Virus record (IMG/VR): IMGVR_UViG_3300045988_098886
Reading direction: 5' to 3' (one strand)
From: a virus
DNA length: 64,000 nt
This document shows positions 23,975-24,117 of this stretch, one piece after another. Each line of letters opens with the position of its first letter. Positions within the stretch are counted from its first letter, which is position 1. A program made the position numbers and the translations under genes. The notes beneath the pieces were generated by a model that did not search any database, was not told the DNA's origin, and saw nothing but the letters and a program-made list of their open reading frames with translations.

Positions 23975-24117
23975 AGATGTCGTTTGTTTTTTTAATCACC
24001 GCGTCTACCAATTTCGCCATCTCCCCAAGTATATAAAGTTTTGTGGGAAGAACGGGACTCGAACCCGTAATGTAGTGATGCCTTATAAACGTTACTTATA
24101 ATTGCTGTGTGACATCT
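23975..24117 (-). ncRNA. ACAGCAA element E8 carrying a circularly permuted Leu-like tRNA body (loop AT-AAG-GC)
   Basis: Order is AGATGTC-ACACAGCAAT..-[loop, 3' anticodon stem, T arm, 3' acceptor]-18-nt cap-[5' acceptor, D arm, 5' anticodon stem]-..-GACATCT. Confidence 0.65.

What the first reader, a model, noticed from the sequence alone, without database searches (positions are those of the whole stretch)
23975..24117. Third permuted tRNA body (element E8), Leu-like, break at the start of the anticodon loop
The minus strand reads: AGATGTC-ACACAGCAATTATAAGTAACGTTT-[ATAAGGC ATCAC TACATT ACGGG TTCGAGT CCCGT TCTTCCC A]-CAAAACTTTATATACTT-[GGGGAGA TG GCGAAATTGGTAGACGC G GTGAT]-TAAAAAAACAAAC-GACATCT.

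- The 5' part has the characteristic Leu/class-II D arm (GGCGAAATTGGTAGACGC) and A73.
- GTGAT pairs with ATCAC to rebuild the anticodon stem.
- The 7-nt loop AT-AAG-GC has U33 and G37.
- There is no long variable arm.

Together with E3 and E7 this makes three independent cases where a complete tRNA body is wired into the E scaffold through its anticodon side. The acceptor end is closed by a loop in each case.
Basis: partly seen in the sequence, partly recalled or inferred. Interest (0 to 1): 0.8.

Follow-up and report, generated by a model that had tools for sequence, protein, structure and literature searches.

The report
Phage Y-like RNA with tRNA mimic
A 143-base element in a gut phage's tRNA cluster folds like a leucine tRNA wired in back to front; it belongs to a large family of small stem-plus-motif RNAs encoded beside a Ro60-like protein gene, so it is most likely a viral "Y RNA" that imitates tRNA, not a working tRNA.

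Summary
Window 24117-23975 (minus strand) reads exactly as described. The order is 3' tRNA half, linker, 5' tRNA half, enclosed by the 7-bp stem AGAUGUC/GACAUCU.

- **tRNA body.** ARAGORN calls the rotated body a tRNA and finds none in the native order. Eight orthologous copies in related phages keep 215 of 216 stem cells paired, with compensatory changes in all four tRNA stems.
- **Anticodon.** The proposed AAG anticodon loop is not real. It is never closed, and the closest relatives carry an extra G there.
- **E family.** The scaffold has 11 copies in the window and 432 in 65 of 80 related loci. All 432 lie on the strand of a DUF2828/DUF7788 gene, and most lie downstream of it.
- **Partner protein.** The predicted fold of that protein matches Ro60/Rsr over its full length.
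- **Best reading.** E8 is a YrlA-type tRNA-mimic module on a new Y-RNA-like scaffold, probably bound by this Ro60-like protein. It fails the Rfam YrlA threshold and lacks the GNCGAA motif, so I call it a new variant, not a member.
- **Unexpected match.** The scaffold consensus (AA-G, covarying stem, CUUACAGCAA, variable core, CUGU) matches dictyostelid Class I RNAs, which are reported as unique to social amoebae.

Expression and protein binding are untested.

The parts
24111..24117 (-). P1 5' strand AGAUGUC. It is preceded by A at 24118, a position that is A in 97% of family members.
   Evidence: Pairs with 23975-23981. Among the 11 window copies the P1 core pairs are 100% paired and 6 of 7 covary. 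Family logo.
24102..24110 (-). Spacer AC plus the invariant family motif ACAGCAA (24108-24102).
   Evidence: The motif is invariant in the 11 window copies. It aligns to the 11-nt motif of Rfam Dicty_Class_I_RNA.
24080..24101 (-). 5' joining segment: small hairpin UUAUAAGU-AAC-GUUUAUAA, then GGC.
   Evidence: The hairpin appears in the minimum-free-energy fold. In L012 the stem is UUAUAAAC/GUUUAUAA, which turns two wobble pairs into Watson-Crick pairs. An extra G in L006/L007 shifts the supposed anticodon.
24075..24079 (-). Anticodon-stem 3' strand AUCAC.
   Evidence: Pairs with 23995-23999. Four of its 5 pairs show changes on both sides among orthologs.
24069..24074 (-). Short variable region UACAUU.
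   Evidence: Orthologs carry 13-nt (L012) or 15-nt (L021 group) arms, so the body derives from a class II tRNA.
24052..24068 (-). T arm ACGGG-UUCGAGU-CCCGU.
   Evidence: Two of its pairs covary.
24045..24051 (-). Acceptor 3' strand UCUUCCC.
   Evidence: Pairs with 24020-24026. Five of its 7 pairs show changes on both sides among orthologs.
24027..24044 (-). Position-73 A plus a 17-nt loop that closes the acceptor stem. There is no CCA.
   Evidence: Neither length nor sequence is conserved: 18, 9 or 7 nt among orthologs.
24020..24026 (-). Acceptor 5' strand GGGGAGA.
24000..24019 (-). U8, G9, the D arm GCG-AAAUUGGUAGA-CGC and G26.
   Evidence: Class II (Leu-type) D arm, aligned with the window's tRNA-Leu genes.
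23995..23999 (-). Anticodon-stem 5' strand GUGAU.
23982..23994 (-). A-rich 3' joining segment UAAAAAAACAAAC.
   Evidence: The positions just before the P1 3' strand are A-rich across the family.
23971..23981 (-). P1 3' strand GACAUCU, then GAUU. The family consensus here is ...UCU-G-U/A-U.
27764..29485 (-). DUF2828/DUF7788 protein gene, 573 aa. This Ro60-like protein is the proposed partner of the E RNAs.
   Evidence: Pfam. PHROG 850 'RNA-binding protein'. AlphaFold model with pLDDT 84; the top 9 PDB matches are all Ro60/Rsr over the full length. 21 of 36 homologs match Pfam vWA_Ro60.
27625..27720 (-). E11, an E copy 44 nt downstream of the DUF2828 stop codon.
   Evidence: In the 80 related loci, 51 E copies start in the first 500 nt after the gene.
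23416..23557 (-). E7, a second E copy with a permuted tRNA-like body. tRNA-Val starts 7 nt after it.
   Evidence: Rfam YrlA 24 bits.
20511..20629 (-). E3, a third E copy with a permuted tRNA-like body. Its acceptor stem is closed by a CUUG tetraloop. tRNA-Glu starts 7 nt after it.
   Evidence: Rfam YrlA 34.8 bits, E = 3e-4.
20064..20184 (-). E2, an E copy holding a tRNA-like body in normal order but without an acceptor stem.
   Evidence: Rfam tRNA 24.7 bits, model positions 7-64.
26238..26292 (-). E9, a short E copy (55 nt) that ends 5 nt before tRNA-Trp. The other short or mid-length copies are 15397-15488, 22523-22589, 23073-23139, 23249-23307 and 26414-26474.
   Evidence: Best Rfam Dicty_Class_I match, 29.3 bits.

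Best explanation
E8 is a phage non-coding RNA of the Y-RNA type.

**Architecture.** Its 5' and 3' ends pair in a 7-bp stem (P1). Next to the stem lies the invariant single-stranded motif ACAGCAA. Together these form a platform shared by all E copies. I propose that this platform is bound by the Ro60-like DUF2828/DUF7788 protein encoded at the head of the same-strand tRNA/E array.

**Display module.** The variable interior of each E copy is a display module. In E8 it is a leucine-tRNA-derived body with T arm, closed acceptor stem and D arm, joined to the platform through its anticodon stem. This is the architecture of bacterial YrlA RNAs.

**Proposed function.** The body has no anticodon loop and no free CCA end, so it cannot decode. 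It would act as a tRNA mimic that brings tRNA-binding factors to the Ro-like protein, or diverts them from real tRNAs. Candidates are modification enzymes, RNase P, exonucleases as in Ro-Y RNA-PNPase complexes, or host tRNA-targeting nucleases.

**Proposed release.** The RNA is probably cut out of the polycistronic tRNA precursor by the enzymes that trim the neighbouring tRNAs.

**Shown:** the fold and its conservation, the family, the linkage to the gene, and the Ro60-like fold of the protein. **Inferred:** transcription, binding by the protein, and what the mimic recruits.
For: **The tRNA-like fold is under selection**
- The rotated body is called a tRNA.
- 215 of 216 stem cells are paired across 8 orthologs, with compensatory changes in all four stems.
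- The tertiary-interaction nucleotides are present: U8, A14, G18-G19 and the UUCGA T loop.

**The P1 stem is a real RNA helix**
- 90.9% of cells are paired, 8 of 9 pairs change on both sides, and 0 of 500 shuffles reach this. Sliding the partner strand drops pairing to 34-48%.

**The family is tied to the gene**
- A strict pattern finds exactly the 11 copies in the 64-kb window and nothing else.
- It finds 432 copies in 65 of 80 DUF2828 loci. All 432 are on the gene's strand, and 411 of 432 start beyond the gene's 3' end.
- A collection-wide pattern search of 2.9 million viral contigs gave 36 hits. Twenty-four are in the 80 listed DUF2828 contigs, and several others sit at DUF2828 gene starts.
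- The same pattern gave only 45 hits in 596 Gb of bacterial genomes. None passes the strict E test at the pattern site, and the nine strict matches in those loci look like coding sequence with no tRNA after them.

**The protein is Ro60-like**
- The nine best PDB matches are all Ro60/Rsr, aligned over about 570 columns, E = 2e-8 to 3e-6.
- 21 of 36 homologs match Pfam vWA_Ro60.

**Possible autoregulation**
- In distant homologs (42-46% identity) the mRNA start itself forms an E-like element, aaaAGAUGUUUAACAGCAAA...AACAUCUG, with the AUG inside P1.
- The distance to the 3' strand varies, and the first 23 residues are disordered in the model. This fits autoregulation by the protein that binds E RNAs.

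**Precedent**
- YrlA RNAs sit within 4 kb of Ro60 on the same strand and carry T / acceptor-stem-loop / D domains.
- The M. smegmatis YrlA has a 7-bp acceptor stem and is cut by RNase P (PMC4201824).
- Phage Ro60 proteins bind phage Y-like RNAs and host PNPase (PMC12135203).
Against: - There is no expression, end-mapping or binding data for any E RNA.
- Co-occurrence with DUF2828 could reflect shared ancestry of one phage lineage and not a functional pairing.
- Foldseek TM-scores against Ro60 are moderate (0.36-0.49), and sequence-only searches of the PDB do not find Ro60.
- E8 scores 17.8 bits on Rfam YrlA (threshold 69) and lacks the GNCGAAN0-1G motif thought to contact Ro60 (PMC4201824).
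- E8 is cleanly absent from seven close relatives, so it is dispensable.
- Eight of the 11 window copies end 5-10 nt before a tRNA. This also fits a role in tRNA precursor handling that needs no Ro-like protein.
Confidence: 0.6

Rival explanations
1. E8 is a genuine circularly permuted tRNA-Leu gene. The transcript's ends would be joined at the anticodon loop, for example by a cut followed by RtcB-type ligation. RNase P and a 3' nuclease would then open the acceptor linker and give a functional tRNA, as in the red alga Cyanidioschyzon merolae (from my own knowledge of that system).
For: The 3' half precedes the 5' half, with a linker between the acceptor strands. The rotated sequence is called tRNA-Leu(AAG) by ARAGORN. 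A 7-bp acceptor stem plus T arm is a plausible RNase P substrate.
Against: - The supposed 7-nt anticodon loop is not conserved. L006, L007 and L012 have an extra G that changes the 'anticodon'.
- The ends to be joined are separated by 22-nt and 13-nt segments and a plain 7-bp helix. There is no bulge-helix-bulge motif.
- No CCA is encoded, and position 73 varies between A, G and C.
- E3's acceptor stem is closed by a tetraloop that cannot be opened usefully.
- The window already encodes tRNAs for all 20 amino acids.
- Most E copies (225 of 319) have the same scaffold with no tRNA-like T arm.
Confidence: 0.04
2. E elements are structured 5' leaders or spacers of the phage pre-tRNAs. They would guide or protect precursor processing, or fold the neighbouring tRNA, without any dedicated protein. 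The tRNA-like inserts would be extra RNase P entry sites.
For: Eight of 11 window copies end 5-10 nt before a tRNA. In relatives, 174 of 432 copies are followed by a tRNA within 12 nt.
Against: - Only 184 of 1083 tRNAs in the related loci have an E within 25 nt upstream.
- More than half of the E copies, including E8 (144 nt from tRNA-Ile), are not next to a tRNA.
- An invariant single-stranded 7-mer and E-like elements on DUF2828 mRNA starts point to a sequence-specific binding partner.
Confidence: 0.2
3. E8 is a decoy for host tRNA-directed defence nucleases or other tRNA-binding host factors, and it acts independently of the Ro-like protein.
For: It is a tRNA-shaped RNA with no decoding capacity, located in a phage that carries a full tRNA set and a tmRNA. 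It varies in presence among close relatives, as accessory counter-defence genes often do.
Against: The anticodon loop, the usual target of anticodon nucleases, is exactly the part that is missing. This reading does not explain the shared scaffold of the tRNA-less copies.
Confidence: 0.12
4. E8 is a non-functional remnant: either two decayed tandem tRNA-Leu genes (the 3' part of one and the 5' part of the next), or a small mobile insertion.
For: Chen et al. warn that tandem tRNAs can imitate YrlA (PMC4201824). E8 shows clean presence/absence among close relatives.
Against: The two halves pair with each other and co-vary across three divergence groups, which decay would not preserve. All 432 family members lie on one strand, and the P1 sequence differs between copies while its pairing is kept. 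That is unlike the terminal repeats of a mobile element. Distant relatives carry E8 at the same locus, so its absence elsewhere is a deletion.
Confidence: 0.03

Closest known systems
YrlA, the bacterial and phage Y RNA-like RNA with a tRNA-like domain (Rfam RF02553; Chen et al. 2014, PMC4201824)
   Same: - The terminal stem is formed by the 5' and 3' ends.
- The internal domain runs T arm, closed acceptor stem-loop, D arm, and joins the stem through the anticodon-stem position.
- It lies on the same strand and within 4 kb of a Ro60-type gene.
- The 7-bp acceptor stem resembles that of M. smegmatis YrlA, which RNase P cleaves.
- The Rfam model aligns E8 end to end in this register.
   Different: - E8 scores only 17.8 bits against a threshold of 69.
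- It has no GNCGAAN0-1G motif. The platform is a 7-bp stem plus ACAGCAA.
- The protein is a DUF2828/DUF7788 relative of Ro60, not a Pfam TROVE protein.
- The family has 11 copies interleaved with tRNA genes, and most copies have no tRNA-like domain.
Class I RNAs of dictyostelid social amoebae (Rfam RF01414; Kjellin et al. 2021, PMC7919456)
   Same: - A-A before a conserved G at the 5' end.
- A short terminal stem kept by compensatory changes.
- The motif (C)CUUACAGCAA directly after the 5' strand.
- A variable interior with an A-rich 3' part.
- A 3' end reading CUGU.
- A length of 55-67 nt for the short E copies, against 42-65 nt for Class I RNAs.
   Different: - E is found in bacteriophage genomes, not amoebae.
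- All copies score below the Rfam threshold (at most 29.3 bits against 41.5).
- The distance from the conserved G to the motif is one nucleotide shorter.
- No eukaryotic promoter is expected.
- E8 carries a 120-nt insert.
- Class I RNAs are reported to bind the RRM protein Rnp1A, and no link to a Ro-like protein is known.
Circularly permuted tRNA genes of Cyanidioschyzon merolae and some other algae (from my own knowledge; not checked in a paper here)
   Same: The 3' half is encoded upstream of the 5' half, and the acceptor ends are linked by a short spacer.
   Different: Those genes regenerate a complete anticodon loop through a bulge-helix-bulge cut and ligation, and they yield functional tRNAs. 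E8 has no closable loop and no such motif, and it sits in a bacterial virus.
Phage Ro60 with Y RNA-like partners: mycobacteriophages, Thermus phage phiLo Yrl1/Yrl2 (PMC4201824, PMC12135203)
   Same: A phage-encoded Ro60-fold protein with small stem-closed RNAs encoded next to it. A proposed use is to capture host RNA-handling enzymes.
   Different: Those RNAs carry the CGAA-type motif and partner with canonical TROVE Ro60. There are one or two copies per genome, not an array.

Membership tests
YrlA (RF02553) | Encoded on the same strand and within about 4 kb of a Ro60/Rsr (TROVE) gene | tested here: inconclusive
   E8 starts 3,647 nt downstream of the stop codon of the 573-aa gene at 27764-29485, on the same strand. 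That protein has a Ro60-like fold and its family matches vWA_Ro60. It is classed by Pfam as DUF2828/DUF7788, not TROVE.
YrlA (RF02553) | GNCGAAN0-1G motif near the 5' end, the presumed Ro60 contact | tested here: not met
   The 5' part reads AGAUGUCACACAGCAAUUAUAAGUAACG, with no GNCGAA. The YrlA model's 5' stem positions are mostly deleted or mismatched in the alignment.
YrlA (RF02553) | tRNA-like domain in the order T arm, acceptor stem-loop, D arm, with tRNA tertiary nucleotides | tested here: met
   The stems are kept by compensatory changes in orthologs.
YrlA (RF02553) | Score at or above the Rfam gathering threshold (69 bits) | tested here: not met
   E8 scores 17.8 bits, E3 34.8 bits and E7 24 bits. 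No copy passes in 7 related loci.
YrlA (RF02553) | Bound by Ro60/Rsr, and modified by tRNA enzymes (TruB, DusA) or cut by RNase P | not testable with these tools
   This needs immunoprecipitation, binding assays and modification mapping.
Dictyostelid Class I RNA (RF01414) | Short stem joining the 5' and 3' ends, kept by compensatory changes | tested here: met
   for the 11 window copies. E8's stem is AGAUGUC/GACAUCU.
Dictyostelid Class I RNA (RF01414) | 11-nt motif CCUUACAGCAA next to the 5' strand; positions 3, 6, 9, 10 and 11 are near-universal | tested here: met
   The family consensus is CUUACAGCAA, with the last six positions (CAGCAA) invariant in the window's 11 copies. E8 reads UCACACAGCAA: 8 of 11 positions match, and 4 of the 5 near-universal positions.
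Dictyostelid Class I RNA (RF01414) | Two A residues before an invariant 5' G, and CUGU at the 3' end | tested here: met
   In the family the A before the stem is 97% A, the first stem base 87% A and the second 89% G. The 3' end reads U-C-U-G-(U/A). E8 has AAG...CUGA.
Dictyostelid Class I RNA (RF01414) | Length 42-65 nt and a score at or above the Rfam threshold (41.5 bits) | tested here: not met
   E8 is 143 nt and scores 16.0 bits. Short E copies are 55-67 nt and score 21.6-29.3 bits. None passes in 7 related loci.
Dictyostelid Class I RNA (RF01414) | Upstream DUSE promoter element, and occurrence in Dictyostelia | not tested
   The context here is a bacteriophage with bacterial-type tRNAs, a tmRNA and phage proteins. 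The DUSE motif was not searched for.
Circularly permuted tRNA gene | 3' half upstream of the 5' half, and the rotated sequence scores as a tRNA | tested here: met
   ARAGORN calls a tRNA on the rotated sequence and none on the native one.
Circularly permuted tRNA gene | Joining the transcript ends restores a conserved 7-nt anticodon loop, with a processing motif at the ends | tested here: not met
   The flanking segments are 22 and 13 nt. An extra G in close relatives changes the 'anticodon'. The ends form a plain 7-bp helix.
Circularly permuted tRNA gene | A mature, chargeable tRNA is produced | not testable with these tools
   This needs tRNA sequencing from infected cells.

The most novel reading that the evidence does not exclude
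The E scaffold may be the phage counterpart of the dictyostelid Class I RNAs. Both would then be Y-RNA-like partners of DUF2828 proteins, a Ro60 sister family.

DUF2828 is also reported in plants. Mimivirus-like DUF2828 homologues were seen in a tardigrade assembly.

If this is true:
- The stem-plus-ACAGCAA platform is an ancient protein-binding module shared between viruses and eukaryotes.
- DUF2828 gains a function.
- Class I RNAs, so far considered unique to social amoebae and of unknown mechanism, gain a candidate protein partner.
- tRNA-like inserts such as E8 show that the platform is a general display scaffold.
Probability: 0.25. Interest if true: 0.9.

Novelty: new variant of a known kind. 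Interest (0 to 1): 0.75.

Why it matters
- **Wider Ro60/Y RNA principle.** It would extend this principle to a protein family of unknown function (DUF2828/DUF7788) and to a new RNA scaffold present in hundreds of copies in large gut phages.
- **Independent reuse of tRNA mimicry.** It would show that tRNA mimicry on a Y-type scaffold was re-used on a different platform. The body is borrowed from tRNA-Leu and kept by selection.
- **A testable autoregulatory loop.** An E-like element covers the DUF2828 start codon in distant relatives.
- **A link to an open question.** The close match of the scaffold to dictyostelid Class I RNAs connects an amoeba RNA class of unknown mechanism to a concrete, testable protein family.

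Tried and rejected
- **Rfam.** Scans at gathering and permissive thresholds found no family passing threshold for E8, for other E copies or for the flanking conserved elements.
- **BLAST against deposited phage genomes.** Only tRNA-level and HNH-gene matches; no annotated relative.
- **Sequence-only PDB searches.** Neither the protein nor its profile finds Ro60 convincingly. Only the fold comparison and Pfam vWA_Ro60 do.
- **Promoter and terminator scan of 22000-29700.** Promoter-like sites were fewer than in shuffles and terminator-like sites not clearly more, so it was uninformative.
- **Other large ORFs of the window.** Pfam found no RNA ligase or repair enzyme.
- **E pattern in 596 Gb of bacterial genomes.** It gave 45 hits. 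None passes the strict E test at the pattern site, and the nine strict matches in those loci look like coding sequence with no tRNA after them. This served as a background control and gave no host clue.
- **MAFFT alignment of the E8 orthologs.** It misplaced the T arm of the most distant group, so I counted stem pairs on a hand-segmented alignment.
- **Covariance model of the scaffold (R1).** It recovers short and mid-length copies at 38-45 bits but spans only the 5' half of long copies such as E8. I therefore did the family census with an explicit stem-and-motif search.
- **Literature searches.** Searches for DUF2828, its PIRSF and InterPro names, and TROVE in Dictyostelium found nothing on function or on presence in dictyostelids.
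- **Readings rejected.** A working permuted tRNA gene, a decayed tandem tRNA pair, and a mobile element; reasons are given under the rival explanations.
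Full report
**Context.** The window is an AT-rich phage region. Twenty-five tRNA genes and a tmRNA all lie on the minus strand between 13.4 and 35 kb. They are interleaved with small ORFs, an HNH endonuclease and other phage-type genes. An IMG/VR contig of 140,591 bp encodes a DUF2828 protein 100% identical to the window's and is probably the source (L050). Deposited phage genomes give only tRNA-level and crAss-like HNH matches, from human faecal samples.

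**The observation.** The order is:
- P1 5' strand AGAUGUC
- AC-ACAGCAA
- a 22-nt joining segment
- anticodon-stem 3' strand AUCAC
- a 6-nt variable region
- T arm
- acceptor 3' strand
- A plus a 17-nt loop
- acceptor 5' strand
- U8-G9
- a 3-bp D stem with an 11-nt loop
- G26
- anticodon-stem 5' strand GUGAU
- a 13-nt A-rich segment
- P1 3' strand GACAUCU

No tRNA is called on the native sequence. After rotation ARAGORN calls a tRNA whichever 7-nt loop is supplied, so the call rests on the body and not on the loop. The D arm aligns with the window's own tRNA-Leu genes. The minimum-free-energy fold of the native RNA forms P1, a small hairpin after ACAGCAA, the anticodon stem and the acceptor stem (z = -2.5).

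**Orthologs and covariation.** The 130-aa ORF just upstream brought in 11 related phage loci.
- Four of them carry E8: L006, L007, L008 and L012. More distant phages (L021, L022, L023, L031) have a 137-nt copy at the same place, recognisable by the same downstream conserved sequence.
- Seven close relatives lack it through a clean deletion...GGAAUAC-CAAAU-AUCCUUCC....
- Across the eight distinct sequences, 27 pairs give 216 cells, of which one is unpaired. Changes on both sides occur in 5 acceptor, 4 anticodon, 2 T and 1 D pairs.
- The acceptor loop is 18, 9 or 7 nt and not conserved. Position 73 is A, G or C. The variable arm is 6 nt here but 13 and 15 nt in the distant copies, so the body descends from a class II tRNA-Leu.
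It is the end of an open 22-nt segment, and L006, L007 and L012 have an extra G that shifts the triplet.

So the tRNA-like cloverleaf minus its anticodon loop is under selection. A decodable tRNA is not.

**The E scaffold.** Eleven copies lie on the minus strand of the window. Each has A-A/G-G, nine nucleotides from the start of P1, then ACAGCAA, a variable interior, an A-rich stretch, the P1 3' strand and G-U/A-U.
- P1 is 90.9% paired and 8 of 9 pairs change on both sides. No shuffle out of 500 reaches this, and sliding the partner strand drops pairing to 34-48%.
- Eight of the 11 copies end 5-10 nt before a tRNA gene.
- A strict stem-and-motif search finds exactly these 11 and nothing else on either strand of the window.
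- E3 and E7 also carry permuted tRNA-like bodies. E2 carries a tRNA-like body in normal order without an acceptor stem.

**Link to a Ro60-like protein.** The 573-aa gene at 27764-29485, on the same strand and 3.6 kb upstream of E8, matches Pfam DUF2828 and DUF7788 and PHROG 850 'RNA-binding protein'.
- An AlphaFold model built from 36 homologs (pLDDT 84, pTM 0.83) has Ro60 and Rsr structures as its nine best PDB matches. They align over about 570 columns with E = 2e-8 to 3e-6. Only vWA-domain proteins follow.
- Twenty-one of the 36 homologs match Pfam vWA_Ro60.
- I fetched 80 viral loci around homologs, down to 42% identity. Sixty-five contain E copies, 432 in all and 304 distinct.
- Every one of the 432 is on the gene's strand. 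Of them, 411 start beyond the gene's 3' end, 51 of those in the first 500 nt after it. A tRNA follows within 12 nt in 174 cases.
- A pattern search of all 2.9 million viral contigs returned 36 places. Twenty-four are in those 80 contigs, and several others sit at the start of DUF2828 genes.
- In 596 Gb of bacterial genomes the same pattern gave 45 hits. None passes the strict E test at the pattern site, and the nine strict matches in those loci look like coding sequence with no tRNA after them.

**A possible autoregulatory mimic.** In several distant homologs the mRNA start reads aaaAGAUGUUUAACAGCAAA...(A-rich)...AACAUCUG. This is an E element with the start codon inside P1, and the distance to the 3' strand varies. 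The first 23 residues of the model are disordered, so this segment may be kept for its RNA and not for its peptide. The window's own gene has only a degenerate version, AUGUUUGACAGAAAAAGAACAUCAA. I read this as support for direct recognition of the E platform by the protein, but it is an inference.

**Comparison with YrlA.** Chen et al. 2014 (PMC4201824) describe YrlA as follows:
- It lies on the same strand and within 4 kb of Ro60.
- It has a 5' GNCGAAN0-1G motif.
- It has a T arm, an acceptor stem-loop and a D arm in that order.
- It is modified by tRNA enzymes.
- In M. smegmatis it has a 7-bp acceptor stem cut by RNase P, followed by CCA addition.

E8 shares the architecture and the gene linkage. 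It lacks the motif and scores 17.8 bits against a threshold of 69; E3 scores 34.8 bits. Phage Ro60 proteins with Y-like RNAs that assemble with host PNPase are known (PMC12135203). E8 therefore works like a YrlA but is not a member by the family's own criteria.

**Comparison with Class I RNAs.** The Rfam consensus of Dicty_Class_I_RNA is GaUcuC-CUUACAGCAAUuaAA...A-rich...GagAuCUG. Five short E copies score 21.6-29.3 bits against it; the threshold is 41.5. Kjellin et al. 2021 (PMC7919456) define the class by:
- two A residues before an invariant G
- a short covarying terminal stem
- the 11-nt motif next to the 5' strand
- a variable interior
- a CUGU 3' end
- a length of 42-65 nt

They report it as unique to dictyostelids. 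The logo of 319 distinct phage E copies shows the same features: A 97%, A 87%, G 89%, C-U-U before ACAGCAA, and U-C-U-G-U/A at the end. The distance from the G to the motif is one nucleotide shorter. No copy reaches the Rfam threshold. Mimivirus-like DUF2828 homologues were seen in a tardigrade assembly, and plant papers list DUF2828 genes. I could not test whether dictyostelids have them. The resemblance is too detailed to dismiss but may be convergent.

**Mechanism.** The model I think most likely has five steps.
1. The array is transcribed as long precursors (inferred).
2. tRNA-processing enzymes release the E RNAs, whose paired ends protect them (inferred).
3. The Ro60-like protein binds P1 plus ACAGCAA (inferred from linkage, strand bias and the mRNA mimic).
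4. The interior module determines what is recruited.
5. In E8, E3 and E7 that module is a tRNA mimic that can engage tRNA-binding enzymes. E8's 7-bp acceptor stem may allow RNase P cleavage, as in M. smegmatis YrlA (by analogy).

Confidence is about 0.9 that E8 is a selected, structured RNA with a permuted tRNA-like domain. It is about 0.6 for the full Ro-partner model.

**Limits.** There are no expression or binding data. Co-occurrence may partly reflect common descent. The fold match to Ro60 has moderate TM-scores (0.36-0.49). The covariation rests on three divergence groups.

Noticed in passing
window 23831-23962 (minus strand), between E8 and tRNA-Ile: A conserved non-coding element of about 132 nt ends at the first base of tRNA-Ile. 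It is present in all relatives, including distant ones. The predicted fold has three helical domains and 6 covarying pairs. It matches no Rfam family.
   Followed up: partly
window 24123-24196 (minus strand), just upstream of E8: A second conserved non-coding element of about 74 nt follows the stop codon of the 130-aa ORF. It shows apparent compensatory changes in L012 (GAGAG...CUCUU becomes GGGAG...ACUCC). It is absent from the more distant L021 group. In relatives without E8 it abuts the 132-nt element directly.
   Followed up: partly
window 34821-34885 (minus strand): A sub-threshold match to the type-P1 twister ribozyme (51.6 bits against 67.2, E = 5e-9) lies about 80 nt downstream of tRNA-Arg(acg). 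Related phages carry hatchet, pistol and RAGATH-1 hammerhead ribozymes above threshold near the tmRNA (L075 5320-5467 and 1208-1284; L063 4295-4366).
   Followed up: no
window 24906-24980 (minus strand): ARAGORN reports a tRNA with a four-base anticodon (gcgt) and an 8-nt anticodon loop. It scores 56.9 bits on the Rfam tRNA model. It could be a frameshift-suppressor type or simply a tRNA with an odd loop.
   Followed up: no
window tRNAs at 19974-20057 (Thr), 21910-21993 (His), 22930-23015 (Lys), 23160-23242 (Cys), 26146-26232 (Trp): These tRNAs are 83-87 nt long, which is unusual for these amino acids. The tRNA-Cys sequence shows an extended variable region (UUGAGAAAUCUGUCG).
   Followed up: no
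window 29421-29485 (minus strand); loci L090, L093, L106, L112, L121 at the DUF2828 start codon: In distant relatives the start of the DUF2828 gene forms a full E-like element with the AUG inside the stem. The window's own gene keeps only a short, degenerate version.
   Followed up: partly
window 33165-33715 (minus strand): A phage-encoded tmRNA of about 550 nt (75 bits) lies within the same-strand RNA gene array. Relatives carry it too.
   Followed up: no
window 38116-38154 (minus strand): A weak extra match to the E scaffold model (15.9 bits, E = 0.19) lies outside the tRNA array. I did not inspect it.
   Followed up: no
loci L003, L004, L005, L009, L010 and L013 compared with the window at 23333-23557: E7 together with tRNA-Val is absent in several close relatives that also lack E8. 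E copies and E-plus-tRNA units therefore appear to be gained or lost as cassettes.
   Followed up: partly
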